Source: an uncultured Alphaproteobacteria bacterium
Lineage (GTDB): Bacteria > Pseudomonadota > Alphaproteobacteria > CBDVDY01
Direction: 5' to 3'
DNA: 42,655 nucleotides
Assembly (NCBI GenBank): GCA_965372875.1
Contig: CBDVDY010000001.1
Location: forward strand, 1 to 42,655
This document shows, one piece after another, positions 16,354 through 42,429 of the stretch (the stretch's first letter is position 1; every line of letters begins with the position of its first letter). The notes below the pieces were generated by a model. That model saw only the letters and a list, made by a program, of their open reading frames with translations, was not told where the DNA came from and did no database searches. A program made the position numbers and the translations under genes.

Positions 16354-16368
16354 TCGGCCGGCCCCCGC

Positions 16369-17963: not shown

Positions 17964-18182
17964 CTCGGCTTGGGTTCCTCTCGACCACGACGCACGGGCC
18001 GCGCGCGCGGGCGGCGCTTGAGCCCGGCAAATCTACCTCGGTTATGGTAAATTAGTCTTAAGGTTGGTTAATTGGATCGTTGGCAGGGCCGGACTATGGC
18101 GCGTCCGCCGCCGTTTGCCAAGAGGCGGAATGTCACGGATCGGCGATCAAAACAGGCAACAACAAGCGCCGGCCGAAATCGC

Positions 18183-24644: not shown

Positions 24645-26133
24645 GCCGGCGCCGTCTCCGGCGCAGCATGGGAATGATGAAGGCGGCGACCGCCGCGAAG
24701 GCCACCGCGAGGCTGGCCAGCAGCCAGAGATTGCCGCCGCCGCGGAGCGTCAACACTGTCCTGGCGGTGACGCCGCCGGCGCCGCCGATACGGATTTCGA
24801 CGTTGTAGGCGGACGCCGGCAGCGAGGCCCGCATCCGATACACGCTCTCCTCGAGCGGTTCGTCGAAGGCGCGCAGCACGGGCGCGCCGCCATCCGTCGG
24901 GCGCAGAGCCACCTCGACCCGGCCCCTGTGCGCCTTGCCGGTCCGCGTGTCGGTGACGGAGACGTAGATCATCGCGTCGCTCGGTATCCCCGACTGGCTG
25001 CGGTTGATGCCGTCCAACGTGTAGGCGACCAGCGTGACCTCGTAGGGTGGCGCGCTGACCTGCACCTCGCGGGTCGGCACTTGCGGGTAGTTTTCGACGT
25101 AGCCGTAGTGGGGCAGGCCCTTGATGTGGTGGGCCAGCGCGTTCGACGGCGGCACCAGCACCGCCAGCAGCGCCAGCAGCGCGGCGAGCCCGGCCGTCGC
25201 GCGCGCGCCACCGGTCCGGGACCGGCGCCCCAGGCCGATTTCCAGGACCTGCGTCGGACAGAGATCGACGCAGGTATTGCACAGCATGCAGCGTTCGACG
25301 TCGATCTCGTCGCGCGGGATGACGGCGACCGGGCAGGCGGCGACACAGGCGTTGCAGCCGGAAAGGCACTCGCCCGATTCCGTGCGCCGTACGCCCCATA
25401 TCCGCCGCCGGCCAACCAGTTCCAGCAGCAGTCCCGTGGGGCACAGGCTTCGGCACCAGATCCGCGGCGCCGCCAGGAGCTCCGAGGCGGCGATGACGGC
25501 CATGAACAGGACGCCGAAACCGACCGCGCCGCCATACACCGCCAGATGCAAGTCGCGGGCCAGACCGGCATAGGGAAGGATGAAGGCAAAAGCGTTGAAC
25601 CCGGCCACGGCGGAAATCAGGAGGCCCGCCGTCAGTACGAGGTAGCGCAGTCCCGGCGGCGCGGCGGCGCCGGGCAGGCGCAACCGGCCACTCCGGCGCT
25701 CAAGCCACGCTCGCAGCGCGGCGTTCATTTCGAGCAACGTATTGACCGGGCAAACCCAGCCACAGAACAGACGCCCGGCCAATGCGGCGACCAGCAGCGG
25801 CACCGCGGCGCCGGCGACGAGCGGCCAATGCACCGAGGCGCTGGCGACCGCGTGCCCGAGCGCGGCCAACGGGTCGTTGATGGTAAATCCAAACAAGGTG
25901 ATCGACCAATATCCGCCGTGAAACAAATCGACCGCCGCGACCGGGCTGTCCAAGCCGCCGAACAGGCGCGCGAACGCGGTGTAAAGGAAACCCGCCCAGT
26001 CGCCGGCCAACGCGCCCACATGCCGCGCGCCCTTGCCGTACGCCTCGTACAGCGCGCTGCCACGCGAAAGCATCGGTAGCGCCAGCAATAGTGCGATGGA
26101 ACTCCACTGGATCGTGCGGCGCAAGGCGTTCAA
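24595..26133 (-). CDS. NapH-like membrane quinol dehydrogenase subunit with a C-terminal extension of about 210 aa
   Basis: FCGWVCPV and WCRSLCPTG membrane CxxxCP motifs. Two ferredoxin motifs: CLSGCNACVAACP and CMLCNTCVDLCP. These are followed by TM / about 140 aa / TM / RRRRRRR. TTG start lies 3 nt after the napG-like stop. Confidence 0.75.
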   Translation of the reverse strand: MNALRRTIQWSSIALLLALPMLSRGSALYEAYGKGARHVGALAGDWAGFLYTAFARLFGGLDSPVAAVDLFHGGYWSITLFGFTINDPLAALGHAVASASVHWPLVAGAAVPLLVAALAGRLFCGWVCPVNTLLEMNAALRAWLERRSGRLRLPGAAAPPGLRYLVLTAGLLISAVAGFNAFAFILPYAGLARDLHLAVYGGAVGFGVLFMAVIAASELLAAPRIWCRSLCPTGLLLELVGRRRIWGVRRTESGECLSGCNACVAACPVAVIPRDEIDVERCMLCNTCVDLCPTQVLEIGLGRRSRTGGARATAGLAALLALLAVLVPPSNALAHHIKGLPHYGYVENYPQVPTREVQVSAPPYEVTLVAYTLDGINRSQSGIPSDAMIYVSVTDTRTGKAHRGRVEVALRPTDGGAPVLRAFDEPLEESVYRMRASLPASAYNVEIRIGGAGGVTARTVLTLRGGGNLWLLASLAVAFAAVAAFIIPMLRRRRRRRAGMPGSRPGESRVDA

Positions 26134-26136
26134 GAT

Positions 26137-26709
26137 TCAAACCCGTCTTGGCGTGATACGGATCGCCTGCGGCAAGTGGATACAGGCGCGTTCGCAACTG
26201 CCGCAACCGACGCACTGTTCGGCGTCCACAACGGGGCGGGCGCCGGCCTTGAGTTTCAGCGCCTTGTCGGGAAACGGGCAGGCGTAATAGCACACGCCGC
26301 ATGTGCGGTTCGCATAGGAGTAGCACAAATCCTCGTTGACGATCGCGGTCCCCATGTGGACCGATTCCAAGATCGATTCGGCATTGTTGGCGATTGGGGT
26401 CAGCGCATCGGTGGGGCAGGCATCGGCGCAGCGCATGCACAGGATGCAGGCCTGCTCGCGCGGCCGGATCAAGGGTACGTAGGCCCGGGCGGGTCCCGCT
26501 TCCGGCGCCTCGAACTGGATGCACTGGTTCGGGCAGACGCTGCCGCACTGGAAACAGCGGATGCAGGCCGCCAGGAAGTCCTCTTCGGGCAAGGCGCCGG
26601 GCGGTCGAAGCGGCGCGGCCTCCGCCGGCCGCGCGCCGCGCAGGAACCAACCCGTGGCGACCGAGCCCACGGCGGTAAGCGCCAGAGCCAGCGCCCGCCG
26701 CCGATTCAT
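26137..26709 (-). CDS. NapG-like periplasmic (Tat-exported) poly-ferredoxin
   Basis: MNRRRALAL twin-arginine signal. LRPPGALPEEDFLAACIRCFQCGSVCP as in NapG. Four Cys clusters. ATG at 26707-26709(c); the maximal ORF reaches 26739. Confidence 0.8.
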   Translation of the reverse strand: MNRRRALALALTAVGSVATGWFLRGARPAEAAPLRPPGALPEEDFLAACIRCFQCGSVCPNQCIQFEAPEAGPARAYVPLIRPREQACILCMRCADACPTDALTPIANNAESILESVHMGTAIVNEDLCYSYANRTCGVCYYACPFPDKALKLKAGARPVVDAEQCVGCGSCERACIHLPQAIRITPRRV

Positions 26710-26752
26710 GCCGCCGCCGTCTCCGGTTGCGTCGCCCACGTTGGCCCCCGTC

Positions 26753-29482: not shown

Positions 29483-29485
29483 GAT

Positions 29486-30214
29486 CTACTCCTTGGGAGC
29501 GAGGCTTCTGAGATAGGCGACGATGTCGTCGATCTCGTATTCGCGTAGTTCGACGAATCCTTGGCGGCCTTTGAGATACGCTCCCATCGGCGTGCCGACC
29601 CGGCCATACATAAGTGTCGCTTTGATGTATCCGTCGGTGGCTGATTTCAGGAACCCCGGGTCGGCCAACGCCGGCCCGCCGATGCCCGAGACAGCGCCGA
29701 TGACGTGGCCACCGCCGGCGTTCGGGCCGCCTTGCCCTTCCAGCCCGTGGCAGCCCGCGCACAACCCCTTGAACAGGGCGTGGCCTTCGCCGGCGTCGCC
29801 GTCAATGGTTCCATTCGCGATCTCGACGCTGGGCTGGTACTGCCAGCTCTTGATGTACAGGGCGACCGCGCGCATATCGTTCTCGCTCATTTCCTCGGCG
29901 AACGACGGCATGCCGCGCACCGGGCGGCCGTGTCGCATGCTGCGCATCAGATAGCCGAAATCGGCGATTACCAGGAACGACTGAAGATTGAGCGGCAGCC
30001 CCATTCCGCCGCGGCCGTGTTCACCGTGGCAGGCGGCGCAGTTCTCTTCAAACAACATTTGCCCGCGCGAGTAATATTGGTTCCAGCCGCTGTCGCGGGT
30101 GAACACTTGTGGGGCCGTGCCGGCGCCGCTTTGAGCGCTGGCGGCGGTTGCGGCAATTGTAAATACAGCCGCGGCGACGGCCAACGCCGCGCGGCGAACG
30201 CTGCTACGATTCAT
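29486..30214 (-). CDS. Diheme class I c-type cytochrome, Sec-exported (242 aa)
   Basis: Internal ATG at 30212-30214(c). Signal peptide MNRSSVRRAALAVAAAVFTIAATAASA. Two CxxCH motifs (CAACH, CAGCH), each with a downstream Met region (RGMPSF, GTPMGAY). TAG stop lies 3 nt before the molybdoenzyme ATG. Confidence 0.85.
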   Translation of the reverse strand: MNRSSVRRAALAVAAAVFTIAATAASAQSGAGTAPQVFTRDSGWNQYYSRGQMLFEENCAACHGEHGRGGMGLPLNLQSFLVIADFGYLMRSMRHGRPVRGMPSFAEEMSENDMRAVALYIKSWQYQPSVEIANGTIDGDAGEGHALFKGLCAGCHGLEGQGGPNAGGGHVIGAVSGIGGPALADPGFLKSATDGYIKATLMYGRVGTPMGAYLKGRQGFVELREYEIDDIVAYLRSLAPKE

Positions 30215-30415
30215 GATTGTTCCCCCAGTGGATCCATGGGTCGTGACGCAATACCTGTGACCCGTTGTCCACCCCTGATCGTCCCTGTCTCGATGATCTG
30301 GCAGGGTATAGTGGGGTACATGAGTCAAGCAGGCGCGAATGTCAAGAAAACCGGTCATGGAAAACCGGGAACCCCGACGGCGCGGCGGGCCGCCGCTTTG
30401 CCCCGTCCGGCGGCC

Positions 30416-32783: not shown

Positions 32784-32812
32784 TTGACGATTCCAGGGCT
32801 TGGCTCGATAAC
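32784..32812 (+). promoter_or_regulatory. Sigma70-like promoter candidate for the porin gene
   Basis: TTGACG (32784-32789), 17-nt spacer, GATAAC (32807-32812). Confidence 0.4.
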
Positions 32813-32817
32813 TCGAA

Positions 32818-32845
32818 ATCTCGGAATTCCTACTTATTCCGAGAT
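32818..32845 (+). promoter_or_regulatory. Perfect 10-bp inverted repeat (ATCTCGGAAT-N8-ATTCCGAGAT) at the predicted 5' end of the porin transcript
   Basis: Read directly. Starts about 6 nt after the putative -10. Could be a 5' stabilising stem-loop or a repressor operator. Confidence 0.4.
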
Positions 32846-32912
32846 ATTCGCGATTGCGCTTGAATACAACGCATTGGCGAAACTACAAAAACGGAGAGGA
32901 GGTTCCACTCAT

Positions 32913-34274
32913 ATGACTACACCTCGTTTACGAACGGCCCTGCTGGGGTCCGGCGCCGCGATCGCTTTGCTCGCGGCATCCGGTCCCGTGGCGGCTGACG
33001 AGATCGACGACCTGCGGGCGCAGATCAACGCGCTTCAGGACCAGGTCTCGCAGATTCAGGCCGATGAAACCGCCACGCCGCGCGTTGCGCCGGCCGCCGC
33101 GGTCAATGCCGGCAGCAAGCCCAAGTCGTGGCAGCTTCCGGGCACCAACACGTCGATGTCGATCGGCGGTTACGCCAAGCTGGACGCGATCTACGATCTC
33201 AACGCCGATCAGGGTCCGAACCTGAGCGACGGCGCGGCCGAAGGCTCGCAGGCAGCCAACAAGCAGGGGCATATGCGCCTGCACGCCAGGCAGTCGCGCC
33301 TGTTCGTCAAGACCTGGACGCCCACGGACTGGGGCGAACTCGCCACCCACATCGAATTCGACTTCTTCGGCGCCGGCGGCAACGAGGTCGTGACCAACTC
33401 GGACACCTTCCGTAAGCGCCACGCCTATGGCCGTCTGGGTCCGGTGTTGGCCGGCCAGACCTGGTCGACGAGCCTCGACCTCCGGGCCTATCCCGAAGTC
33501 CTCGATTTCGCCGGTCCGGCGGGCGAACGCTTCATCCGCCAGGGGGTGATCCGCTACACCCACAATCTGGGCGACGGCGCGAATCTCCAGCTCGCGGTCG
33601 AGAACCCGCAACAGACGTTCAGAACCGACGCGGCGAACGCCGGCCTTGGTGCTACGGCGGTCGACCATGCGCCGGACTTCGTTGTCAAGGTGACCAAGAG
33701 GTTCTCGGGTGGCCACATCTCCGGCATGTTCATGGGCCGGGTGCTCTCGGCCGACACCGGTGGTGCCCCAGCCATGGCCTTCGAGGATACGGAGTTCGGC
33801 TGGAGCGGCGCGATTTCGGGCAGCTACAACATCACCCCGAACGACACGTGGAAGTTCGCGTTCTCCTATGGCGACGGCGCGGGACGCTACCAGTTGAACG
33901 GCGTTGGCCAAGCGTTCGTCATTGCCACGCCGTTTGGCTCGGCCACGCCCGAGCTGAGGACGGTCAAGATGTTCGGCGGGCACACCAGCATCCGCCACAA
34001 GTGGAATGCCACCACGCGTTCGAACGTGGTGTTCGGCTCCTCCAAAGCCGATGTCGCGGACGAGATCGACGCCGTGGCCGGCGGCGCCACCGCCAAGGGT
34101 AATATTCCGGCGGGTATTCCGGATCGCAGAAATTCGATCCACGCGAACCTGATCTGGAGCCCGGTGCCGCAGGTCAATATCGGCCTCGAGTACATCTGGC
34201 AGCAGACCTCGTACCACAACAGCAACAACGGCCGTACCAGCCGTATCCATCTGGGTATGCAGTACAAGTTCTAA
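32913..34274 (+). CDS. Outer-membrane porin, DcaP-like (N-terminal coiled coil plus beta-barrel)
   Basis: Internal ATG at 32913 with GGAGAGGAGG upstream. Signal peptide ...GPVAA/DE. Coiled coil IDDLRAQINALQDQVSQIQ. C-terminal beta-signal GMQYKF. Confidence 0.8.
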   Translation: MTTPRLRTALLGSGAAIALLAASGPVAADEIDDLRAQINALQDQVSQIQADETATPRVAPAAAVNAGSKPKSWQLPGTNTSMSIGGYAKLDAIYDLNADQGPNLSDGAAEGSQAANKQGHMRLHARQSRLFVKTWTPTDWGELATHIEFDFFGAGGNEVVTNSDTFRKRHAYGRLGPVLAGQTWSTSLDLRAYPEVLDFAGPAGERFIRQGVIRYTHNLGDGANLQLAVENPQQTFRTDAANAGLGATAVDHAPDFVVKVTKRFSGGHISGMFMGRVLSADTGGAPAMAFEDTEFGWSGAISGSYNITPNDTWKFAFSYGDGAGRYQLNGVGQAFVIATPFGSATPELRTVKMFGGHTSIRHKWNATTRSNVVFGSSKADVADEIDAVAGGATAKGNIPAGIPDRRNSIHANLIWSPVPQVNIGLEYIWQQTSYHNSNNGRTSRIHLGMQYKF

Positions 34275-34310
34275 TCGATCCGCGTTAGCGGAATTCGATT
34301 CGACTGATCT

Positions 34311-34344
34311 GGCCGGTCCCCGAGCGGGGGCCGGCCATTTTTTT
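34311..34344 (+). terminator. Rho-independent terminator of the porin gene
   Basis: GGCCGG(T)CCCC-GAGC-GGGGCCGGCC followed by ATTTTTTT. Confidence 0.8.
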
Positions 34345-34389: not shown

Positions 34390-36477
34390 TCAGCGTCCCT
34401 CGCGCCTCCAGGCGAGCAGGAGAGCGGCCAGCGCAAGCACCAGCACCAACACGCCGGGCAGGACCGGCACCTGGCGGATGCCGGTCACGATATAATCGCC
34501 GTTGGCGCGCAAACCGATCCAGCCCTGTTTGCCCAAACGGTTCCTGCCCGCGACCTCGCGTCCCGGGCGGACTCGGCGGATCTCGGGAAACGATTCCTCC
34601 GCCAGCCAAATCACGCCGCCGCCGCTCGCCGCGATCACTGGCGCGAGCCGCTCGTCGGTCGCGCGCATGTCGGCCACTTCGCGTGGGTTGAGCGTGCCCG
34701 CCGCGACCATCGTCGCCCGGCTATGATCGCGAACTCGGTAAAGGCCGGGCGAATCCACGGCGACGCTGCCGGTGGCCCGCCCGCGGCCGATCTCCTCCAA
34801 CTCCAGCGTCCGCACTTCTCCGGACGGCGCGGTGATTTCGACCGGGCCGTTGTCCGGCAGGAGACTTCGTCTCGTGACCTCCAAGCGGCCGCCGCGAACC
34901 TCGGCGCGCAGATCGTTCTCTTCGAGTTCAGGCTCCTTCATCAGCCAGTGCGCCAGCCGCCGCAACAGCTCCGCCTGCGGCCCGCCGCCTTCGAACCCGC
35001 GGCCCCAAAGCCAGATCTGATCGCTCATGAACTGCGCGACCCGGCCCTCGCCGACCCGGTCGAGAATGAGCAGCGGCCGGCCCTCGGCCCCGGTCATCAA
35101 CGTGTCGCCGCGATCGACGGTGGCGTCGATCAGGCGGAACCAGCGGCCCCACCGACGCTCCTTTCCCGTCACCCCCGGAAGCTCGGCGGTCACCGGGTGG
35201 CGCAAACCCTTGGCCGCGACCTCGGCCCGGAACCCGCCGACGCGCACGTCGCCGGTCGGCCGGCCGGGCAGGATAGGTTGCAGCGGCGTGCGGTAGAGTG
35301 AGAGCGGCGTGGCGAACGCGGGGCCCACCGCGACCAGAAGCGCGCCGCCGCGCTCCACATACTGGGCGACGTTGCCGATATAACGCGACAGGATGACGCC
35401 GCGCCGCCGGTAGCGGTCGAAAATGATGAGATCGAATTCCTCCAGCCGCGCCTCGAACAGCTCGCGGGTCGGGAAGCTGATCAGCGACAACTCGTCCACC
35501 GGCGTTCGGTCCTGTTTTTCCGGCGGCCGGAGAATGGTGAAATGGACCAGATCGACCGCCGGATCGGATTTCAGCAGGTTCCGCCAGCTGCGTTCGCCCG
35601 GGTGCGGCTCGCCCGATATGAGCAGGACCCGCAAACGATCGCGAACGCCGTTGACGGCGACGACGGCGGTATTGTTGGCGCTGGACAATTCGCCAGGTAC
35701 GGCTTCGACTTCGAGCTCGAAATAGGTCGTACCGGCGTGGTCGAGCTGGATTTCGACCTTGCGCTCTTGCCCGACCGGAACTCTCAACGCGCGCCACGTC
35801 TTGCCGTCGCGCCGGAGGTTGATGCGCGCCAACTCGCCATTGCCGCCGGGCAGATCGTCGACCCGCACGGTCATTTCGAGCGGCTTGCCGACGAGGCCGT
35901 AGTTGGGCGCCTGGACCACGACCAGCCGGCGATCGCCCCTGTTCGGGTCGCCGCTGATCAAGGCATGGAACGGACTGTAGCGGGCGCGATCAGCCTGCTC
36001 GTCGGGCACGTCGTGAACCTGCCCGTCGGTAATCATGACGATGCCGGCGAGGCGCCGCTCCGGCAGCTCGGAAAGCGCCCGCGCGAGATCGCCGAACAGT
36101 TGGGTGCCGTCGCTGCCGCCCGACCCTTTTCCCGCGCGCACGACCCGTAGCTCGAGATCGGGGAAGCGATCGACGGCCGCGCGGAGCCGGGCCAGCGCCG
36201 CTTCGCTTTGCCGCCGTCTCTGGCCGATGTCCTGGCTTGGCGACTCGTCGACGACAGCGATCGCTATGTCGGGGAGCGCTTCGCGCTGTTCCAGAACGAG
36301 CGAAGGGTTGGCCAACGTCAACAGCAAAACCGCCGCGGCCAGCAGCCTCCAGCCCAGCCCGGACGCGCGCACGTAAAACGTATAGCCGAGAACCAGGGCC
36401 GTCGCGGCCGCGAGGGCGGCCAGCGCCGTCCATGGCAAAAGAGGCGCGAAGGCGGCGCTGGCTTCCATGCCGCTCAT
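34390..36477 (-). CDS. Membrane protein with a VWA-like domain and a GATase1-like domain (fourth gene of the MoxR block)
   Basis: Two N-terminal TM helices. MIDAS-like VVDESPS ... ITDG. A final C-terminal TM. ATGA overlap with the upstream gene (36474-36477). Confidence 0.8.
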   Translation of the reverse strand: MSGMEASAAFAPLLPWTALAALAAATALVLGYTFYVRASGLGWRLLAAAVLLLTLANPSLVLEQREALPDIAIAVVDESPSQDIGQRRRQSEAALARLRAAVDRFPDLELRVVRAGKGSGGSDGTQLFGDLARALSELPERRLAGIVMITDGQVHDVPDEQADRARYSPFHALISGDPNRGDRRLVVVQAPNYGLVGKPLEMTVRVDDLPGGNGELARINLRRDGKTWRALRVPVGQERKVEIQLDHAGTTYFELEVEAVPGELSSANNTAVVAVNGVRDRLRVLLISGEPHPGERSWRNLLKSDPAVDLVHFTILRPPEKQDRTPVDELSLISFPTRELFEARLEEFDLIIFDRYRRRGVILSRYIGNVAQYVERGGALLVAVGPAFATPLSLYRTPLQPILPGRPTGDVRVGGFRAEVAAKGLRHPVTAELPGVTGKERRWGRWFRLIDATVDRGDTLMTGAEGRPLLILDRVGEGRVAQFMSDQIWLWGRGFEGGGPQAELLRRLAHWLMKEPELEENDLRAEVRGGRLEVTRRSLLPDNGPVEITAPSGEVRTLELEEIGRGRATGSVAVDSPGLYRVRDHSRATMVAAGTLNPREVADMRATDERLAPVIAASGGGVIWLAEESFPEIRRVRPGREVAGRNRLGKQGWIGLRANGDYIVTGIRQVPVLPGVLVLVLALAALLLAWRREGR

Positions 36478-39200
36478 TGCCCGAGCCGTTCCAGGATCGC
36501 CGGCACGTGCACCTGGTCGGACTTGTAATTGCCGGTCAGCGCGTACATCACCAGATTGATGCCGCTCCTGAAGGCGTATTCGCGCTGGTCCTCGCCGCCC
36601 GGGACGACCGCGAACAGCGGACGGTCGTCGTCGCCGGTGGCCCAGGCGCCGCCCCAGTCGTTCGTGCTGACCACGACCGAAGAGACACCGTCATTGACGT
36701 CTCGCCTGGCGCGTTCGACCCATACCGTGCCGCCCGCCCAGCGGCCCGGAAACTGGCGCAGCAGGTAAAATGTCTTGGTCAGCACGTGGCCATCGGGAAT
36801 CGGCGTCAGCTGCGGGATGTGCAGTCCGCGCGTAAGACGCCGGAGCTCGCGCGTGCCCGGCTGGCCCAGCCCGCCCGAGCGGTCGCGCACGTCGAGCACC
36901 AGGATACCGCCGCTGGAAATGAACCGGTTGAGCCGTTCCGCGGCGGCCGGAGACGGCGGTGTCTGGCCGGACGTGATTGGCCAATAGACGAGGGGAAAGA
37001 AGATCAGTTCGTCGAATTCCGGGTCGACCGCCATGGGCGCGCCCGGTTCGACCGAGGTGCGCGTCCGCAGCATCCAGCGCAGGCCCCTGAGCGCGGCCTC
37101 GGAAATCCTGTCGATTTCGGCATCGCCGGTGAGCAGATAGGCGAGATGGGTCTCGCCGGTAGCCGCGAGCGCGAACGCGTCGCCGTCGCGATCGCCCGGT
37201 TCCTCGGCGTCCGCGGGCGCGGCCGGAAGCAGGACCAGCGCCGCGACAATGGCTGACGTGGCCGCCACGGCGCCGGCCGATCCCGAGCGCAATCCTCGAA
37301 ATGCCAATGAAATCACCAGATCCGCAAGCATCAGCAGCAGCGCCGCGGCCATCAGCCAGGGCATCAGATCGAATTCGCGTTCAAGGCCGTAGAAGCCGCG
37401 CGCGACGCCCGAGGGCAAATCACCGAGCGGCCCGATATCGGTCAACCCGGCGGAGAGGTTGAGGCTGCGTCGGACGGCCTCGGTGCCATAAAATCCCGGC
37501 GGGTGGCGCGGGCGGGCGAAGGTCTTTTCGAAGGAAGCGGCCGGGATCGCGGCCGCCGTCGCGGGCGCCCGTTGCAGGCGCCCGAACCCGTCCAGGGTTT
37601 CCACCGGCGGCAGGCTGCCCTCGGCGTCGCCCGCGGCCACGCCTTGGCTCAGTCCAACGAGCCGCCGCAGCATGTCGACGAACAGGCCCGAGAGCGTGAG
37701 GTTGGACCAGCCGGTGTTGGCGGTGGTGTGCAGCAGGACCAGCCAGCCCCGACCACGCCGCTCGGCGGTCACCAGCGGCGTGCCATCGGTCAGCCGGGCC
37801 CAGGTCTTCTTTCCGAGATCGGCCGCCGGTTCCGCCAGCACTTGCCGCCGGATCACCACATCCTCGGGAATGGCGAGGCCGGCGAACGGGCTGGACGGCT
37901 CGAACCGCGCAAGCCGCATCGGCTGGGTCCACGACATGCTTCCGCCGAACGTGCGGTCGCCGCGGCGCAGGCGCACCGGAACCAGTTCGTCGTCGGCCTC
38001 GGCGAGGCGCGGTCCGGCAAACCGGACGACCACGCCGCCCGATTGCAACCAGTCGGTGATGCGCGACCGCGCGGATCCGGTGATCGGTCCGGGATCGGCC
38101 AGGATCAGCACCGAAAGCGGCCGCGCGAGAAGCTCGGCGGCGTTGCCGCGGCGCACTTCGCCGTAAGGACCCAGCGCGCGCTCCAGGTAGTAGGCCTCGC
38201 TCAGCAGCGGATGGCCGGTAAGCGCCGACCCTGTCACCAAGCCGATCGGGCGGCGGCGCCAGCGCTCGTCCAGCAGCACCAGCGACGCGGCCGTGCGCTG
38301 GCCCTCCACCTCCAGCCGCGCGACCCGGTTGCGCAGTTCCGACGGCAGTTCCAGCGCGGCGTCGGCGCTTGACGACCCCGGCGCGAAGCGAACCTCGCGG
38401 CGGGCCAGCACCCGACCGTTGTCGGCCATCGCCCGCACCCATACAAGCGCCGGGCCATCGGACCCGACGCGCAGAAGCCGCGCGCCGAGTTGTGTGCCTT
38501 CGATCACCGGCGGCAGCATCACCACCGGCCGGTCTTCCGGCGCGTCGACAATGACGCGCAGCGAGCCAAGACGTTGCAGCCGCTCGGCGAGATTCGCCGC
38601 CGCCTCATCGTCGATACCGTCGCTCAGCCAGACGGCATTGGCGGAGCCGGGTATTTCGAGCCGCTCCAGCGCGGCGGCGGCGGCGGCGCGGTCGGTCGGC
38701 CATGGCAGCGGGACAAGCGCCCGCGCCAAGGTCCGCGCGTCGGTGGCGCGCAAGAGCTTGCTGGCTTCCAACGGCGCCTCTTCGCTGCTCCGCGCGGTGG
38801 CCAGCAGAATAACCGGCCGTTGCGCCCGTTCGGCCTGTGCCAGAAGCTCGCCGATCTCCTGCTCGCGGGCGGGCCAATCGGCCGCCGCGGCCCAACCATT
38901 GTCGACCACCAGAACCAGCGGGCCGCTGCCCGTGAACTCGGCGCCCGGGTTCAGGATCGGCCGGGCCAGGCCGACTATGATCAGCGCCGCCAGCACCGTT
39001 CGCAGGATCAGCAGCCACAGCGGCGTGTGCGCCGGGGTCTCTTCCTTCTGTCGCAACCCGAACAGGAGTCGGACGGCGGGAAACCGGATCAGCCGGGGCG
39101 TCGGCGGCGTCACCCGCAACAGCCACCACAACACCGGCAGGACCGCGAGCGCGAGCAGAATCCACGGGCTGGCAAAGGCCAATGGTCCGAGGCTCAGCAT
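36474..39200 (-). CDS. BatA_N (aerotolerance-regulator N-terminal double-TM) / DUF4159 family membrane protein, 908 aa
   Basis: MLSLGPLAFASPWILLALAVLPVLWWLLRVTPP N-terminus. C-terminal DUF4159-like REYAFRSGINLVMYALTGNYKSDQVH. Confidence 0.8.
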   Translation of the reverse strand: MLSLGPLAFASPWILLALAVLPVLWWLLRVTPPTPRLIRFPAVRLLFGLRQKEETPAHTPLWLLILRTVLAALIIVGLARPILNPGAEFTGSGPLVLVVDNGWAAAADWPAREQEIGELLAQAERAQRPVILLATARSSEEAPLEASKLLRATDARTLARALVPLPWPTDRAAAAAALERLEIPGSANAVWLSDGIDDEAAANLAERLQRLGSLRVIVDAPEDRPVVMLPPVIEGTQLGARLLRVGSDGPALVWVRAMADNGRVLARREVRFAPGSSSADAALELPSELRNRVARLEVEGQRTAASLVLLDERWRRRPIGLVTGSALTGHPLLSEAYYLERALGPYGEVRRGNAAELLARPLSVLILADPGPITGSARSRITDWLQSGGVVVRFAGPRLAEADDELVPVRLRRGDRTFGGSMSWTQPMRLARFEPSSPFAGLAIPEDVVIRRQVLAEPAADLGKKTWARLTDGTPLVTAERRGRGWLVLLHTTANTGWSNLTLSGLFVDMLRRLVGLSQGVAAGDAEGSLPPVETLDGFGRLQRAPATAAAIPAASFEKTFARPRHPPGFYGTEAVRRSLNLSAGLTDIGPLGDLPSGVARGFYGLEREFDLMPWLMAAALLLMLADLVISLAFRGLRSGSAGAVAATSAIVAALVLLPAAPADAEEPGDRDGDAFALAATGETHLAYLLTGDAEIDRISEAALRGLRWMLRTRTSVEPGAPMAVDPEFDELIFFPLVYWPITSGQTPPSPAAAERLNRFISSGGILVLDVRDRSGGLGQPGTRELRRLTRGLHIPQLTPIPDGHVLTKTFYLLRQFPGRWAGGTVWVERARRDVNDGVSSVVVSTNDWGGAWATGDDDRPLFAVVPGGEDQREYAFRSGINLVMYALTGNYKSDQVHVPAILERLGQ

Positions 39201-39216
39201 GGCAACCCGTCGTCCG

Positions 39217-40122
39217 TCATCGCAGCAGCGCGCCCGACATGATCATGTACAGGGCGAGCAAGGCCGTCTCCGGCGGCTGGTGGCTGTGGTGCCGGGTGAA
39301 CGACCAGCCGACGTGCCGGCAGATCGATTCCAGCCCGTCGACATGGGCGCCGAGCCGCGCGCGATATTCCGCGCGGGCGCTTTCCACCCGGCGCACCAGC
39401 ACGTCGCCTTCTCCCTCCAATCCTTCGAACCGGGTCCGCCCGCGGAAGGGCAGGTCCTCCTCCGCCGGATCCAGAACTTGCAGCAGATGTCCATTGACGC
39501 CGCGTCCGGCGAAGCGGCGCACGAGGTCGTTGGTCTCCTCGATCGGCGCCAGGAAATCTCCGATCAGCACGAGGTGAGCGTGCCGCGGCAAGGGCTCGAA
39601 TCCGGGCAGATCCCCGCCGCCACCCTCGGCGGCCTTGAATCGTCGTTCGTCGAGCACGGAGTGGGCGAGGCGTTCGAGGGTTGCGCGGCCGCTCGACGGC
39701 ACCGATCCGTCGCCCAGGAGTGCGATGTGCTCGCCGGCGCGCACCAGGAGCGACGCCAGCGCCAGCAGCAGCAAATCCGCGCGCTCGCGTTTCTCCGGCA
39801 GATCGTCGGCGGAGGCGTAGCGCATCGACGCCGAAACATCGCACCACAACCAGATGCTCTGCGCGGCCTCCCACTCGGTTTCCCGCACGAACAGGTGGCG
39901 GGTCTTGGCCGACTGACGCCAGTCGATCATCTGCGCCGAATCGGTCGATTCGTAGCGGCGGAACTGCCAGAACGTCTCGCCCTGGCCGACGCGGCGCCTG
40001 CCGTGCACGCCTTGCGCGATGGTCGAGGCGACGCGCTCGGCGGCGACCAGGAGCGGCGGCAGCCCGGCGGCGATTTCCTCGGCGCGGTGCCGCGAGAGTT
40101 GCAGATTCGCGCTCGTCGCCAT
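39217..40122 (-). CDS. DUF58 domain protein (VWA-related partner of MoxR ATPases)
   Basis: GVHGRRRVGQGETFWQFRRYESTDSAQMIDWRQSAK and WLWCDVSASM motifs. Confidence 0.85.
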   Translation of the reverse strand: MATSANLQLSRHRAEEIAAGLPPLLVAAERVASTIAQGVHGRRRVGQGETFWQFRRYESTDSAQMIDWRQSAKTRHLFVRETEWEAAQSIWLWCDVSASMRYASADDLPEKRERADLLLLALASLLVRAGEHIALLGDGSVPSSGRATLERLAHSVLDERRFKAAEGGGGDLPGFEPLPRHAHLVLIGDFLAPIEETNDLVRRFAGRGVNGHLLQVLDPAEEDLPFRGRTRFEGLEGEGDVLVRRVESARAEYRARLGAHVDGLESICRHVGWSFTRHHSHQPPETALLALYMIMSGALLR

Positions 40123-40144
40123 GACCCGCGTCCTCGGCCGGCGG

Positions 40145-41161
40145 TCAGCCGACGGCCGCGCGCAACCGGTCGATCACCTGATCCACGGTGACACCGTCGG
40201 CGCGGGCCGAGAAGTTCAGCGCCATGCGGTGGCGCAGCACGGGAGGGGCCAGCGCCAACACGTCCTCGACGGACGGCGCGAGCCTGCCCTGGAGAACCGC
40301 GCGGGCGCGAACCGCCAGCATCAGCGCCTGGCTCGCGCGCGGACCCGGCGCCCAGGCCACGTGGTCACGGATCTCCGGGATGGCGCTGGTTTCGGGGCGC
40401 CCCTCGCGCACCAGCGTGAGGATCGCCTCGACCACGCTTTCGCCGACCGGCACGCCGCGGATCGTCTCCTGCGCCCGGGCCAGCTCCTTGGCCGTCAGAA
40501 CCTTTTCGGGCTTGTCCTCGACCAGCCCCGTGGTGGCGATCATCATGCGCCGTTCGGATTCGGCGTCGGGATAGCCGACGTCGATTTGCAACAGGAAACG
40601 ATCGAGCTGCGCTTCCGGCAGCGGATAAATGCCTTCCTGCTCGAGCGGATTTTGTGTCGCCAGCACGTGAAACGGCGAGGGCAGGGGATGGTAATGCCCG
40701 GCGACCGTCACGCGGTGCTCCTGCATTGCCTGCAACAGCGCCGACTGGGTACGCGGGCTGGCGCGGTTGATTTCGTCCGCCATCAATAGCTGGCAGAACA
40801 CCGGCCCCTTGATAAAGCGGAACGAGCGCTTGCCGGTGTCGGATTCCTCCAGCACCTCCGAGCCCAATATGTCCGCCGGCATCAGGTCCGGCGTGCACTG
40901 CACCCGCTTGTCGTCGAGCCCCAGGGTCAGCCCGAGCGTCTCGACCAGCCGCGTCTTCGCCAGTCCCGGAACGCCGATCAACAGGGCGTGACCGCCGGCA
41001 AGCAGCGTGATAAGAGTTTCGTCGACGACCTCGTCCTGACCGAAGATGACCCGCGCGATGCTGGTCCTGACTTCGGCCATGCGCTGGCCGAGCGATTCAA
41101 CTTCGGCGATCAACTTGTCCGGGGAATCGGCGTCGGCCAGGCCGGATTCGGGTGCGCTCAA
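40145..41161 (-). CDS. MoxR-family AAA+ ATPase
   Basis: Walker A GVPGLAKT, Walker B LLMADEINRA. TTG start at 41159-41161(c) with GGAGGTG 6 nt upstream. Confidence 0.9.
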   Translation of the reverse strand: MSAPESGLADADSPDKLIAEVESLGQRMAEVRTSIARVIFGQDEVVDETLITLLAGGHALLIGVPGLAKTRLVETLGLTLGLDDKRVQCTPDLMPADILGSEVLEESDTGKRSFRFIKGPVFCQLLMADEINRASPRTQSALLQAMQEHRVTVAGHYHPLPSPFHVLATQNPLEQEGIYPLPEAQLDRFLLQIDVGYPDAESERRMMIATTGLVEDKPEKVLTAKELARAQETIRGVPVGESVVEAILTLVREGRPETSAIPEIRDHVAWAPGPRASQALMLAVRARAVLQGRLAPSVEDVLALAPPVLRHRMALNFSARADGVTVDQVIDRLRAAVG

Positions 41162-41200
41162 AATACACCTCCGTCTTGGGGGAACATATAGTGTGGATCG

Positions 41201-41776
41201 ATGAGCAAAGCATCACCGAATATTGCCCGCCTTGCAAAACAAATTGGCGCGAGCGCGGGCGCCGCCGACGGTGACGCGCCACTCGACGATACCTGCGGCG
41301 ACTTCGGCATTCGCATCGCCCGCGACGGAACCTGGTACTATCAGAATTCTCCCATCGGTCGCAAATCGCTGGCCAAGTTGTTTTCGACGGTTTTGCGGCG
41401 GGACGAGGACGGCGATTACTGGCTCGTCACGCCGGTCGAACGGGGGCGCATCGAAGTCGAGGACGCGCCCTTCGTCGCGGTGCGGCTCGCCGTCGCCGGA
41501 ACTGGCCGCGACCAGGTGCTGACCATGGAGACCAATCTTGACGACAGTGTGACAATCGACGCGGAGCACCCGATTCGCGTTGCCCACGATCCCGAAACCC
41601 GGGAGCCGACGCCCTACGTGCTGGTGCGCGGCCGGCTCGAGGCGCGCATCGGCCGCGCGGTGTATTACGAGCTGGTCGAACTGGGCGTGGAACGCGAGGG
41701 CGGAAGTGGCCATATCTACGGTGTATGGAGCAGCGGTGAATTCTTCCCGCTGGGTCAGTTGACGGAGACGGCGTGA
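41201..41776 (+). CDS. DUF1285 family protein
   Basis: IRIARDGTWYYQNSPIGRKSLAKLFSTVLRRDEDGDYWLVTPVERG matches the family core. GTGA-coupled to the next gene. Confidence 0.8.
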   Translation: MSKASPNIARLAKQIGASAGAADGDAPLDDTCGDFGIRIARDGTWYYQNSPIGRKSLAKLFSTVLRRDEDGDYWLVTPVERGRIEVEDAPFVAVRLAVAGTGRDQVLTMETNLDDSVTIDAEHPIRVAHDPETREPTPYVLVRGRLEARIGRAVYYELVELGVEREGGSGHIYGVWSSGEFFPLGQLTETA

Positions 41777-42429
41777 ACCGGGAACTCGTGCAAAGCCGCA
41801 TGGCCCGCCTGGGCGCCGCCGGCGGAGAAAGTGGACCGGAGGCCAGCGCCGGCCCGCGTTCCAGCGCCAATGGCGCCGCCGGTATCGGCCAGCGCGGCGA
41901 CCATGATCTCAACCCCGATCTCGTGCCCGAAGGCGAGCTGATCGACGCCGCCGTGCTGATTCCGATCGTTGACCGGGCCGACGGCATGACCGTGCTGCTT
42001 ACCCAGCGCACCGAGCACCTGAACGACCACGCCGGCCAGGTCAGTTTCCCCGGCGGCCGGGTCGAGGCGGGGGATGCCGACCCGGTGGCCACCGCGCTGA
42101 GGGAGACCGAGGAGGAGATCGGCCTCGCCGCCAGCCACGTCGAAGTCATCGGCCGGCTCGACGATTACCTGACCCGCACCGGGTTTCTCGTGACCCCGGT
42201 GGTGGGGCTGGTGGCGCCGCCCTTCACGCTCGAGCTCGACAGTTTCGAGGTCGCCGAGGCGTTCGAGGTGCCGCTCGCCTTCGTGCTCGATGCGGCGAAC
42301 CACGAGCGGCACAGCCGTGTCTGGAACGGCGCCGAACGGTACTTCTACGTGCTGCCCTTCGAGGACCGGTACATCTGGGGCGCCACCGCCGGCATACTGG
42401 TCAACCTTTTCGAGGTTTTGCGCGACTGA
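41773..42429 (+). CDS. NUDIX hydrolase, CoA pyrophosphatase subfamily
   Basis: Nudix box GGRVEAGDADPVATALRETEEEIGL, preceded by the CoAse motif LLTQRTEHLNDHAGQVSFPGG. Confidence 0.8.
   Translation: MNRELVQSRMARLGAAGGESGPEASAGPRSSANGAAGIGQRGDHDLNPDLVPEGELIDAAVLIPIVDRADGMTVLLTQRTEHLNDHAGQVSFPGGRVEAGDADPVATALRETEEEIGLAASHVEVIGRLDDYLTRTGFLVTPVVGLVAPPFTLELDSFEVAEAFEVPLAFVLDAANHERHSRVWNGAERYFYVLPFEDRYIWGATAGILVNLFEVLRD

What the first reader, a model, noticed from the sequence alone, without database searches (positions are those of the whole stretch)
34390..41161. Four-gene MoxR / DUF58 / BatA_N-DUF4159 / VWA-GATase-like membrane operon of unknown function
The operon is translationally coupled, with gaps of 22 and 16 nt and one ATGA overlap. 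It encodes a MoxR AAA+ ATPase, a DUF58 protein, a 908-aa protein with a double-TM BatA_N terminus and a DUF4159 C-terminus, and a 695-aa membrane protein with a MIDAS-like DESPS...TDG motif. MoxR ATPases are known to work with VWA partners as chaperone or insertion systems (Bacteroides Bat operon, RavA-ViaA, CoxD/CoxE). To my knowledge the substrate and role of this large envelope-anchored alphaproteobacterial version are undefined. About 1600 aa of membrane-tethered, mostly uncharacterised protein makes it a candidate envelope-maintenance or metal-insertion machine.
Basis: partly seen in the sequence, partly recalled or inferred. Interest (0 to 1): 0.6.

Follow-up and report, generated by a model that had tools for sequence, protein, structure and literature searches.

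The report
Known alphaproteobacterial cmdABCD envelope operon
This is an ordinary copy of a four-gene operon (a MoxR ATPase, a DUF58 adaptor and two large inner-membrane proteins) carried by most Alphaproteobacteria and already shown in Rhizobium leguminosarum to be needed for a sound cell envelope; only its biochemical mechanism is still open.

Summary
Four minus-strand genes (40145-41161, 39217-40122, 36474-39200, 34390-36477) are separated by 22 nt, 16 nt and an ATGA overlap. They encode a MoxR AAA+ ATPase, a DUF58 protein, a BatA_N+DUF4159 protein (908 aa) and a 695-aa membrane protein.

The fourth protein has no Pfam hit above cut-off. Its DxSxS...T...D MIDAS residues are nevertheless invariant in 50 relatives. 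Its model contains a GATase1-like domain, and 38 of 50 relatives hit Pfam GATase1_like and 9 of 50 hit VWA_2.

The gene order is kept in 59 of 61 related loci with enough flank, and in Mesorhizobium. The fourth protein occurs once per genome in 163 of 301 sampled alphaproteobacterial genomes. It was found in none of about 150 genomes from other classes of the phylum.

This matches the published cmdA-cmdD (RL3499-RL3502) operon of R. leguminosarum. Mutants there have envelope, morphology and complex-medium growth defects.

Both membrane proteins lack cysteine entirely, so their amidotransferase-like domains are probably non-catalytic scaffolds. The mechanism (a cytoplasmic MoxR-DUF58 motor acting on periplasm-facing vWA/GATase1-like proteins) remains an inference.

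Verdict: real, conserved, already known; low novelty.

The parts
40145..41161 (-). cmdA-like MoxR AAA+ ATPase (338 aa, MRP subfamily). Walker A is GVPGLAKT and Walker B is LLMADEINR.
   Evidence: Pfam AAA_3 E 4.7e-57 and AAA_lid_2. The closest solved structure is Cytophaga hutchinsonii MoxR 2R44, E 5.6e-64. A GGAGG sits 6 nt before the TTG start.
39217..40122 (-). cmdB-like DUF58 protein (301 aa). It is predicted cytoplasmic, with no convincing TM segment or signal peptide. It carries the MIDAS motif DVSAS at aa 95-99.
   Evidence: Pfam DUF58 E 4.7e-30. Motif and hydrophobicity scan. Single copy in the genome.
36474..39200 (-). cmdC-like 908-aa inner-membrane protein. Domain order: BatA_N two-TM hairpin, degenerate vWA, beta-sandwich, GATase1/ThuA-like domain, two TM segments, DUF4159. 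It contains no cysteine.
   Evidence: Pfam BatA + DUF4159. AF2 model pLDDT 77. Foldseek hits: 4I66 at TM 0.81, CMG2/ANTXR vWA domains, ThuA/GATase1-like proteins. TM scan and Cys count.
38946..39200 (-). cmdC BatA_N hairpin (aa 1-85): TM1, then an arginine-rich loop predicted cytoplasmic (LRVTPPTPRLIRFPAVRLLFGLRQKEETPAHTP), then TM2.
   Evidence: Pfam BatA and TIGR02226. The loop has +6/-2 charges, so topology follows the positive-inside rule (inference). It is one of the best conserved segments: 0.77-0.79 against 0.66 overall.
38535..38945 (-). cmdC vWA-like domain (aa 86-222) with a degenerate MIDAS: D100-N-G-W-A replaces DxSxS, while T135 and S193-D194-G195 are kept.
   Evidence: Foldseek vWA hits 8FT6, 1SHT, 8ZMN at E 2e-4 to 8e-4. 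Invariant columns from alignment A2.
37641..38264 (-). cmdC GATase1/ThuA-like domain (aa 313-520), with no cysteine.
   Evidence: Foldseek hits 4PXY, 3RHT and GH42 trimerisation domains. Weak Pfam hits to DUF4350 and DUF7408. Conservation 0.73.
37221..37364 (-). cmdC TM3 (aa 616-634), short RGLRSGS loop, and TM4 (aa 642-660). TM4 is poorly conserved and looks like a retained signal-anchor in front of DUF4159.
   Evidence: Hydrophobicity scan. TM4 conservation is 0.40, the lowest in the protein. That it derives from a signal peptide is inference.
36531..37148 (-). cmdC DUF4159 domain (aa 685-890), predicted periplasmic.
   Evidence: Pfam E 9e-47. PDB 4I66 (Hoch_4089) by sequence at E 1e-17 and by fold at TM 0.81. 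Single copy in the genome.
34390..36477 (-). cmdD-like 695-aa membrane protein. Domain order: two-TM hairpin, vWA-like domain with intact MIDAS, CARDB-like beta-sandwich, GATase1-like domain, beta domains, C-terminal TM and WRREGR tail. It contains no cysteine.
   Evidence: AF2 model pLDDT 84. Foldseek hits: STM3548 2GK3 E 6e-10, STM1381 3SOZ, CARDB 2KL6. Family alignment A1.
35944..36291 (-). cmdD vWA-like domain (aa 63-178) with MIDAS residues D77-E-S79-P-S81, T125 and T150-D151-G152.
   Evidence: D77, S81, T125, D151 and G152 are invariant; S79 and T150 are at least 90% conserved. The A1 profile hits the ArnB vWA domain 8S05 at E 0.0076. 9 of 50 relatives hit Pfam VWA_2, best E 3.6e-4. The protein's own segment gives no Pfam hit.
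34930..35640 (-). cmdD GATase1-like domain (aa 280-516). It is the most conserved part of the protein, with 96 of 237 columns invariant.
   Evidence: Foldseek 2GK3 and 3SOZ. Profile hits 3RHT, 3SOZ, 2GK3. 38 of 50 relatives hit PF07090, best E 2.3e-7. Conservation 0.79.
34393..34473 (-). cmdD C-terminal TM (aa 670-688) and the near-invariant tail WRREGR, predicted cytoplasmic.
   Evidence: Hydrophobicity scan. Tail conservation 0.91, with 5 of 6 columns invariant.
41162..41200 (.). 39-bp divergent intergenic region between the MoxR start and the DUF1285 start. It contains the MoxR Shine-Dalgarno sequence.
   Evidence: Sequence. No sigma-70-like match was found in the scan.
41201..41776 (+). 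Divergent DUF1285 gene, followed by a NUDIX gene at 41773-42429. It is a conserved neighbour and is not shown to be part of the system.
   Evidence: Pfam DUF1285_N and DUF1285_C, and NUDIX. The same pair lies next to MoxR in 48 of 51 related loci.
34310..34337 (.). 12-bp GC-rich hairpin between cmdD and the convergent porin gene (32784-34274). It is the likely end of both transcripts.
   Evidence: Terminator scan and sequence. The T-run is on the plus-strand side only.

Best explanation
The locus is this organism's single copy of the alphaproteobacterial cmdABCD operon (RL3499-RL3502 type). The organism is an uncultured alphaproteobacterium whose nearest relatives are Rhodospirillales-like.

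**Composition.**
- CmdA is a cytoplasmic MoxR (MRP-subfamily) AAA+ ATPase.
- CmdB is a cytoplasmic DUF58 protein, a vWA-type adaptor with an intact MIDAS motif.
- CmdC and CmdD are inner-membrane proteins. Each starts with a two-helix hairpin and places a large cysteine-free ectodomain in the periplasm. The ectodomain order is vWA-like domain, beta-sandwich, GATase1-like domain; CmdC carries an additional DUF4159 domain.

**Most likely mechanism.**
- The MoxR-DUF58 pair uses ATP to assemble or remodel the CmdC/CmdD membrane complex. It would act through their short, highly conserved cytoplasmic elements: the BatA_N loop of CmdC, and the hairpin loop and WRREGR tail of CmdD.
- The periplasmic part works as a non-catalytic, metal-dependent binding scaffold (the CmdD MIDAS) that is needed for normal cell-envelope integrity and shape.

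**Shown:** gene content, domain folds, conservation, distribution.
**Taken from the literature on the Rhizobium operon:** the envelope phenotype.
**Inferred:** topology, the physical coupling of motor to membrane proteins, and the non-catalytic role.
For: **Anatomy.**
- Four coupled genes and their Pfam families.
- MoxR is closest to the MRP-type structure 2R44. MRP-type MoxR genes are defined by an adjacent DUF58 gene and a vWA membrane-protein gene (review text).
- The MIDAS motif is intact in DUF58 (DVSAS) and in CmdD (DESPS/T125/D151, invariant) and degenerate in CmdC.
- Folds: GATase1-like and CARDB-like in CmdD; vWA, ThuA/GATase1-like and DUF4159 (4I66) in CmdC.
- There is no cysteine in 1603 aa of CmdC plus CmdD.
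- The cytoplasmic loop and tail are among the most conserved segments.

**Conservation.**
- All four genes are colinear in 59 of 61 related loci that have enough upstream DNA.
- They are also colinear in two Mesorhizobium genomes, at 66/41/40/44% identity.
- CmdD is present, mostly as one copy, in 163 of 301 genomes sampled across the class. It is present in all 8 sampled genomes of the family that contains Mesorhizobium. It is absent from about 150 genomes of other classes of the phylum.
- The CmdD family comprises 988 clusters (50% identity) at E <= 1e-30.
- BatA_N, DUF58 and DUF4159 each occur once in this genome, and all three occur in the Caulobacter vibrioides control.

**Function, from the literature.**
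- RL3499 is important for membrane integrity and morphology (PMC3893208).
- The operon is named cmdA-cmdD, and mutants show envelope and morphology defects (PMC5700661; bioRxiv 10.1101/551135).
- RL3499, RL3500 and RL3501 show a growth defect on TY medium in Tn-seq (PMC5118466 and PMC4255674).
Against: - I could not read the primary paper (PMC3133104 is not held).
- I could not fetch the R. leguminosarum sequences. Orthology to RL3499-RL3502 therefore rests on three things: matching gene composition, single-copy conservation across the class, and the Mesorhizobium copy in the same GTDB family.
- No interaction between MoxR/DUF58 and the membrane proteins has been shown anywhere.
- Topology comes only from hydrophobicity and charge.
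- CmdD's vWA fold is not among the top 50 Foldseek hits of the whole-protein model, and this protein itself has no Pfam VWA hit.
- A profile-profile comparison did not detect the suspected CmdC/CmdD paralogy.
Confidence: 0.8

Rival explanations
1. The operon is a dedicated cofactor or metal-insertion chaperone for one specific unlinked membrane or periplasmic enzyme. This would follow the NorQ/NorD, CoxD/CoxE or RavA/ViaA model.
For: MoxR with a vWA/MIDAS partner is the architecture of known insertion or maturation systems (abstracts of PMC9976466 and PMC13036017). NCBIfam gives weak similarity to chelatase, CobS-type and RavA ATPases.
Against: No candidate client enzyme is in the conserved neighbourhood. 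The only conserved neighbours are DUF1285 and a NUDIX hydrolase on the other strand. The downstream porin is not conserved (2 of 51 loci). The operon occurs in more than half of sampled alphaproteobacterial genera regardless of lifestyle. The reported Rhizobium phenotypes are general envelope and shape defects. Two large periplasmic scaffold proteins are not a feature of NorQD- or CoxDE-type systems.
Confidence: 0.1
2. The operon is a Bat-type aerotolerance or oxidative-stress system, equivalent to the Bacteroides fragilis BatI operon.
For: It shares the MoxR-DUF58-BatA_N core. The literature groups the Rhizobium operon with the Bat regions of Bacteroides, Leptospira and Borrelia (PMC5700661). 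The BatA family is found in the Bacteroides thetaiotaomicron control.
Against: The TPR (BatC), BatD and SH3 (BatE) components are absent. The third and fourth genes are DUF4159 and GATase1-like fusions that are restricted to Alphaproteobacteria within the phylum sample. According to PMC5700661, a role in oxidative stress was not proven even for the Bacteroides and Leptospira Bat proteins.
Confidence: 0.05
3. The periplasmic GATase1-like and DUF4159 domains are active hydrolases, for example amidases or peptidases acting on peptidoglycan or lipoproteins, and the MoxR module activates them.
For: These are the most conserved domains: 96 of 237 columns are invariant in CmdD. The class I GATase/DJ-1/PfpI superfamily contains hydrolases. 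The Rhizobium mutants are sensitive to glycine and peptide-rich media and interact genetically with ttpA (the glycine detail is from my memory of the 2011 abstract).
Against: Neither protein contains any cysteine, so the nucleophile of class I amidotransferases and DJ-1/PfpI enzymes is missing. The closest structures (STM3548, STM1381, 3RHT, Hoch_4089) are structural-genomics proteins with no function stated in their entries.
Confidence: 0.05

Closest known systems
cmdA-cmdD (RL3499-RL3502) operon of Rhizobium leguminosarum bv. viciae 3841 (Vanderlinde et al. 2011, J Bacteriol 193:2684); predicted copy bab1_1573-1576 in Brucella abortus
   Same: The composition and order are the same: a MoxR-like AAA+ ATPase, a DUF58 protein and two large transmembrane proteins. 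It is described as broadly conserved in Alphaproteobacteria, which matches the distribution found here. A colinear copy in Mesorhizobium, in the same GTDB family, shows 40-66% identity.
   Different: Nothing structural was detected. This copy comes from an uncultured, Rhodospirillales-like genome and has no experimental data. Direct sequence comparison with RL3499-RL3502 could not be made with the tools available.
Bat (Bacteroides aerotolerance) operon of B. fragilis and the bat-like regions of Leptospira and Borrelia (BB0170-BB0176)
   Same: It shares the MoxR ATPase, the DUF58 protein and membrane proteins that begin with the BatA_N double-TM hairpin followed by a vWA-type domain.
   Different: Bat operons carry BatA/BatB with canonical Pfam VWA domains plus TPR (BatC), BatD and SH3 (BatE) proteins. 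Here there are only two membrane proteins. They have GATase1-like and DUF4159 domains, and one of the two MIDAS motifs is degenerate. No TPR or SH3 gene is present.
MRP-subfamily MoxR systems, e.g. Cytophaga hutchinsonii MoxR (PDB 2R44) and the Mycobacterium tuberculosis moxR1-DUF58-vWA membrane-protein operon
   Same: The ATPase belongs here (E 5.6e-64 to 2R44), and the MoxR/DUF58/vWA-membrane-protein gene triad is the subfamily hallmark.
   Different: The mycobacterial operon has one small vWA membrane protein and has been linked to RipA export. The alphaproteobacterial version has about 1600 aa of periplasm-facing multi-domain proteins.
RavA-ViaA (E. coli) and NorQ-NorD (Paracoccus)
   Same: They show the general logic of a MoxR-class AAA+ ring working with a MIDAS-containing vWA partner.
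   Different: Those systems have one soluble vWA partner and defined respiratory-enzyme clients. Similarity of the ATPase is low (RavA E 4e-8), and no client enzyme is linked here.
Hoch_4089 (PDB 4I66, DUF4159) and STM3548/STM1381 (PDB 2GK3/3SOZ, GATase1_like)
   Same: They are the best structural matches for the C-terminal domain of CmdC (TM 0.81) and the central domain of CmdD (E 6e-10).
   Different: Those are small single-domain proteins of unknown function. Here the domains are fused into membrane-anchored multi-domain proteins.

Membership tests
cmdABCD (RL3499-RL3502)-type operon | Four co-directional genes in the order MoxR ATPase, DUF58, transmembrane protein, transmembrane protein | tested here: met
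   ORFs, spacing and Pfam hits. The same order is found in 59 of 61 related loci and in Mesorhizobium.
cmdABCD (RL3499-RL3502)-type operon | Broad, essentially single-copy conservation in Alphaproteobacteria | tested here: met
   Present in 163 of 301 class-sampled genomes (136 of 253 genera). Absent from about 150 genomes of other classes of the phylum. One copy in the window's own genome.
cmdABCD (RL3499-RL3502)-type operon | Sequence orthology (reciprocal best hits) to RL3499-RL3502 themselves | not testable with these tools
   R. leguminosarum sequences could not be retrieved and the primary paper is not held. The nearest proxy is the colinear Mesorhizobium operon at 40-66% identity.
cmdABCD (RL3499-RL3502)-type operon | Loss causes envelope, morphology and complex-medium growth defects | not testable with these tools
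   Known only from Rhizobium genetics and Tn-seq as reported in held papers.
MoxR AAA+ ATPase (MRP subfamily) | AAA_3 core with Walker A and Walker B, AAA lid, and an adjacent DUF58 gene | tested here: met
   AAA_3 at 191.9 bits (cut-off 27) and AAA_lid_2 at 53.5 bits. GVPGLAKT and LLMADEINR are in the sequence. The DUF58 gene lies 22 nt downstream. 2R44 matches at E 5.6e-64.
DUF58 (vWA-like MoxR partner) | Pfam DUF58 above cut-off, with a DxSxS MIDAS motif | tested here: met
   104.8 bits against a cut-off of 23.4. DVSAS at aa 95-99.
von Willebrand A domain with MIDAS (claim for the 695-aa protein) | Conserved DxSxS ... T ... D metal-site residues | tested here: met
   D77, S81, T125 and D151 are invariant and S79 is at least 90% conserved in 50 relatives.
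von Willebrand A domain with MIDAS (claim for the 695-aa protein) | Significant match to a VWA profile or vWA fold | tested here: inconclusive
   - This protein has no Pfam VWA hit, whether whole or as aa 59-189.
- 9 of 50 relatives hit VWA_2 below cut-off, best E 3.6e-4.
- The family profile hits the ArnB vWA domain 8S05 at E 0.0076 over the T...TDG segment.
- The AF2 model shows an alpha/beta domain at aa 58-175, with the motifs at strand ends.
- No vWA structure is in the top 50 Foldseek hits of the whole model.
Class I glutamine amidotransferase (GATase1) superfamily | GATase1-like alpha/beta fold | tested here: met
   - CmdD: 2GK3 at E 6e-10 and 3SOZ; 38 of 50 relatives hit PF07090.
- CmdC: 4PXY and 3RHT, plus DUF4159 = 4I66.
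Class I glutamine amidotransferase (GATase1) superfamily | Catalytic cysteine nucleophile (Cys-His-Glu triad) | tested here: not met
   CmdC (908 aa) and CmdD (695 aa) contain no cysteine at all. They share the fold but are not amidotransferases of this type.
Bat (Bacteroides aerotolerance) operon | BatA_N double-TM hairpin protein next to MoxR and DUF58 | tested here: met
   Pfam BatA at 66 bits and TIGR02226 at 62 bits.
Bat (Bacteroides aerotolerance) operon | Accessory BatC (TPR), BatD and BatE (SH3) genes | tested here: not met
   The operon has only four genes. It is bounded by a divergent DUF1285 gene and a convergent porin gene.
Anti-phage defence MoxR-vWA systems | Match to a known defence-system protein model | tested here: not met
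   PADLOC gives only a marginal AAA hit (E 9.7e-4) for MoxR and nothing for the other three proteins. The locus is core-genome and single-copy with conserved synteny.

The most novel reading that the evidence does not exclude
The cmd module may be an 'inside-out' trans-membrane AAA+/vWA device.

- The cytoplasmic MoxR hexamer, through the MIDAS of DUF58, would grip a conserved acidic residue in one of two places. One is the BatA_N loop of CmdC (the KEETPA stretch). The other is the near-invariant WRREGR tail of CmdD.
- ATP-driven pulling on the hairpins would switch the periplasmic CmdD MIDAS domain between ligand-binding states, much as integrin I-domains are switched.
- This would tether or release an envelope component such as peptidoglycan-associated or outer-membrane proteins.
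- CmdC would be a fusion of a BatA-like protein with a formerly secreted DUF4159 protein, and its poorly conserved TM4 would be the relic of that protein's signal peptide.

None of this is excluded by the data, and none of it is shown.
Probability: 0.2. Interest if true: 0.55.

Novelty: already known. Interest (0 to 1): 0.2.

Why it matters
The cmd operon is one of the most widely conserved alphaproteobacterial gene sets whose biochemistry is still unknown. It affects envelope integrity in a plant symbiont and has a predicted, uncharacterised copy in Brucella. This window adds no new kind of system.

Its value is descriptive, through a consistent domain map:
- three vWA-type domains, of which two have an intact MIDAS and one is degenerate;
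- three cysteine-free GATase1-like or DUF4159 domains;
- short, highly conserved cytoplasmic elements.

This map points to specific residues to mutate in laboratory strains.

Tried and rejected
- **Primary paper.** Reading Vanderlinde 2011 (PMC3133104) failed because it is not held. I relied on held papers that cite it and on my memory of its abstract, marked as such.
- **R. leguminosarum sequences.** The genome-contig scan returned only the 80 closest relatives, mostly Rhodospirillales-like. I then took loci from an unnamed rhizobial-family genome and used the last protein search to name it. It turned out to be Mesorhizobium, not Rhizobium.
- **CmdC/CmdD paralogy.** Profile-profile comparison of the CmdD and CmdC families was negative, with probability 3.6%. 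The shared domain order is supported only at fold level.
- **Isolated sub-domains.** Pfam scans of the two vWA-like segments gave nothing. The GATase1-like segments gave only weak DUF7408, GATase1_like and DUF4350 hits.
- **PDB sequence searches.** CmdD alone gave no hit. DUF58 gave only a chance-level hit.
- **Defence-system reading.** Rejected.
- **Caulobacter or ChvI-regulon data.** Literature searches found nothing specific.
- **Two untested leads.** RSP_1024 is a 'putative MoxR family protein' and a CenR target in R. sphaeroides. BAB1_1573 changes in a Brucella bvrR mutant. I did not verify that RSP_1024 is the cmdA orthologue.

Full report
**1. Observation**

The ORF list shows four minus-strand ORFs at exactly the reported coordinates:
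- 40145-41161 (338 aa)
- 39217-40122 (301 aa)
- 36474-39200 (908 aa)
- 34390-36477 (695 aa)

The spacings are 22 nt, 16 nt and a 4-nt ATGA overlap. The first gene starts at a TTG that has GGAGG 6 nt upstream.

Pfam gives these hits:
- Gene 1: AAA_3 (E 4.7e-57) plus AAA_lid_2.
- Gene 2: DUF58 (E 4.7e-30).
- Gene 3: BatA (aa 8-81) plus DUF4159 (aa 685-888). NCBIfam adds the TIGR02226 double-TM domain.

The fourth protein has no family hit above cut-off.

The terminator-like matches inside the operon are no more frequent than chance (8 found against 5.1 +/- 2.6 expected). A 12-bp GC hairpin at 34310-34337 separates the operon from a convergent porin gene. Upstream, only 39 bp separate the MoxR start from a divergent DUF1285 gene, which is followed by a NUDIX gene.

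**2. The two large proteins**

*CmdD-like protein (695 aa).*
An alignment of 50 of them shows D77, S81, T125, D151 and G152 invariant, and S79 and T150 at least 90% conserved. This is a complete DxSxS...T...D MIDAS signature.
- The AlphaFold model (pLDDT 84) has this order. An N-terminal helical hairpin comes first. An alpha/beta domain (aa 58-175) follows, with the MIDAS residues at strand ends. Next are a beta-sandwich (about aa 180-278), a large alpha/beta domain (about aa 280-515) and further beta domains. A C-terminal TM helix closes the chain.
- Foldseek against the PDB matches the central domain to the GATase1-like proteins STM3548 (2GK3, E 6e-10) and STM1381 (3SOZ). It matches the sandwich to a CARDB domain (2KL6).
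- At sequence level the family profile reaches three GATase1-like structures (3RHT, 3SOZ, 2GK3). It also reaches the vWA protein ArnB (8S05, E 0.0076) over the T...TDG segment.
- Of the 50 relatives, 38 hit Pfam GATase1_like (best E 2.3e-7) and 9 hit VWA_2 (best E 3.6e-4).
- The 'VWA-GATase-like' label is therefore justified for the family. The vWA fold assignment for this protein remains formally inconclusive.

*CmdC-like protein (908 aa).*
- The model has pLDDT 77. Foldseek gives DUF4159 = Hoch_4089 (4I66, TM 0.81; also E 1e-17 by sequence).
- It also gives vWA domains of CMG2/ANTXR for the domain after the hairpin, and ThuA/GATase1-like proteins (4PXY, 3RHT) for the middle domain.
- Its MIDAS is degenerate: D100-N-G-W-A, with T135 and SDG193-195 kept.
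- Both proteins therefore share the order hairpin, vWA-like, beta-sandwich, GATase1-like, beta, TM. A profile-profile comparison could not confirm common ancestry.

*Cysteine content, topology and conservation.*
- Neither protein contains a single cysteine. This excludes the Cys nucleophile of class I amidotransferases and DJ-1/PfpI enzymes in all three GATase1-type domains.
- Hydrophobicity and charge (positive-inside rule, inference) place the short arginine-rich hairpin loops and the CmdD tail WRREGR in the cytoplasm. They place the large domains, including DUF4159, in the periplasm.
- Conservation by region was computed from the two alignments. The best conserved parts are:
  - the GATase1-like domains (0.79 and 0.73, against 0.70 and 0.66 overall);
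  - the BatA_N hairpin with its loop (0.77-0.79);
  - the CmdD tail (0.91);
  - the last 18 residues of CmdC (0.91).
- The TM segment in front of DUF4159 is the least conserved part (0.40), as expected for a retained signal-anchor.

**3. Conservation and distribution**

- In the 80 best loci, all four genes are present in the same order in 59. Nineteen of the remaining loci are cut by a contig end.
- Two loci have enough flank but deviate:
  - In Paramagnetospirillum kuznetsovii (L053) no MoxR gene lies directly upstream.
  - In Azospirillum isscasi (L015) a CmdD homologue is preceded by a stand-alone 336-aa DUF4159 protein and a histidyl-tRNA synthetase gene.
- CmdD is present in 163 of 301 genomes sampled evenly across the class (136 of 253 genera), usually once. 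The genomes without it that the tool listed are mostly small, most of them 2.5 Mb or less.
- In a phylum-wide sample all 38 other genomes with a match were of the same class. None of about 150 genomes of other classes had one.
- HMMER against 1.84 billion cluster representatives finds 988 clusters at E <= 1e-30.
- The window's genome (3.0 Mb, 391 contigs, 79% complete) has one copy each of DUF4159, BatA_N and DUF58. All three families also occur in the Caulobacter vibrioides control genome.
- I took loci from two genomes of an unnamed family whose sampled members all carry one copy. The last protein search showed that they are Mesorhizobium. They carry the colinear operon at 66, 41, 40 and 44% identity.
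- The divergent DUF1285-NUDIX pair accompanies the operon in 48 of 51 loci. The porin gene does not (2 of 51).

**4. What is known**

- The papers held in the library describe an operon RL3499-RL3502 of Rhizobium leguminosarum bv. viciae 3841 (Vanderlinde et al. 2011, J Bacteriol 193:2684). The title calls it 'broadly conserved'.
- RL3499 is an MRP-subfamily MoxR that is maximally expressed in stationary phase and is important for membrane integrity and cell morphology (PMC3893208).
- The operon is called cmdA-cmdD ('complex media growth deficient'). Its mutants show envelope dysfunction and morphology defects. It interacts genetically with ttpA. B. abortus has a predicted, uncharacterised cmd operon, bab1_1573-1576 (bioRxiv 10.1101/551135; PMC5700661).
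- In Tn-seq, RL3499, RL3500 and RL3501 are growth-defective on TY medium (PMC5118466, PMC4255674).
- From my own memory of the 2011 abstract (not verified here):
  - The operon is described as a moxR-like ATPase, a DUF58 protein and two hypothetical transmembrane proteins.
  - Mutants are sensitive to detergents, hydrophobic antibiotics and alkaline pH.
  - Mutants swell on glycine- or peptide-containing media.
  - Expression depends on ChvG.
- Composition, order, phylogenetic spread and single-copy status all match the locus studied here.
- Several earlier notes of this scan reached the same identification for other genomes. I treat them as agreement, not as independent evidence.

**5. How it most likely works**

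*Shown here.* A cytoplasmic MRP-type MoxR ATPase is closest to 2R44. It is encoded together with a cytoplasmic DUF58 protein with an intact MIDAS and two membrane proteins with large cysteine-free multi-domain ectodomains.

*Established for the class.* MoxR ATPases act with MIDAS-bearing vWA partners to remodel or mature specific protein complexes, as in RavA-ViaA and NorQ-NorD (abstracts). MRP-type operons carry DUF58 plus a vWA membrane protein.

*Inferred.*
- MoxR-DUF58 engages the conserved cytoplasmic loop or tail elements of CmdC and CmdD, and assembles or remodels their complex.
- The periplasmic part acts as a metal-dependent binding scaffold, not as an enzyme.
- The outcome is normal envelope integrity and shape.

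I give about 0.8 to the identification plus this general picture, and about 0.2 to the more specific 'inside-out switch' version.

*Rivals.*
- A metal-insertion chaperone for an unlinked enzyme (0.1): no conserved client gene, and the known phenotypes are general envelope defects.
- A Bat-type aerotolerance system (0.05): BatC, BatD and BatE are missing.
- Active periplasmic hydrolases (0.05): no cysteine.
- A defence role is not supported.

**6. Novelty and verdict**

Nothing about this copy (gene lengths, order, motifs, neighbours) departs from the family norm. The open question is the molecular mechanism and the periplasmic ligand. This window does not make that question more tractable than the model-organism copies do. 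Interest 0.2; novelty class 'already known'.

Noticed in passing
window 41162-42429: A divergent DUF1285 gene (41201-41776) and a NUDIX gene (41773-42429, 4-nt overlap) start only 39 bp from the MoxR start codon. The same divergent pair lies next to MoxR in 48 of 51 related loci. This hints at a shared, very compact control region or a functional link.
   Followed up: partly
window 34390-39200: The two membrane proteins (908 + 695 aa) contain no cysteine at all, although they carry three GATase1-type domains.
   Followed up: yes
window 37221-37280 (CmdC aa 642-660): The fourth TM segment of CmdC, just before DUF4159, is the least conserved part of the protein (0.40) and ends in an AxA-like 'PADA' motif. 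It looks like the relic signal peptide of a formerly separate, secreted DUF4159 protein.
   Followed up: partly
L015 6976-10082 (Azospirillum isscasi): A CmdD homologue (58% identity) is preceded by a stand-alone 336-aa DUF4159 protein. No MoxR, DUF58 or BatA_N gene is nearby, and a histidyl-tRNA synthetase gene lies upstream. This is a split or second-copy variant of the module.
   Followed up: partly
L053 2700-5200 (Paramagnetospirillum kuznetsovii): DUF58, CmdC and CmdD are colinear. The 330-aa ORF upstream has no MoxR similarity and no Pfam hit, so the ATPase gene seems to lie elsewhere in that genome.
   Followed up: partly
window 34310-34337: A 12-bp, GC-rich hairpin lies between the convergent porin gene and cmdD. 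The T-run is only on the porin side, so the cmd transcript may end at a hairpin without a U-tract.
   Followed up: no
window 24595-30358: A molybdopterin oxidoreductase (26753-29482, minus strand) is flanked by a di-haem cytochrome c gene (29486-30358) and a 4Fe-4S/Fer4_5 membrane protein gene (24595-26133). Together they form an uncharacterised respiratory-type cluster. PntAB transhydrogenase genes lie at 14959-18030.
   Followed up: no
literature (PMC9275681, PMC2858072): [quoted passage not shown] BAB1_1573, part of the predicted Brucella cmd operon, changes in a bvrR mutant. Both fit envelope-stress regulation, but the orthology of RSP_1024 was not checked.
   Followed up: no
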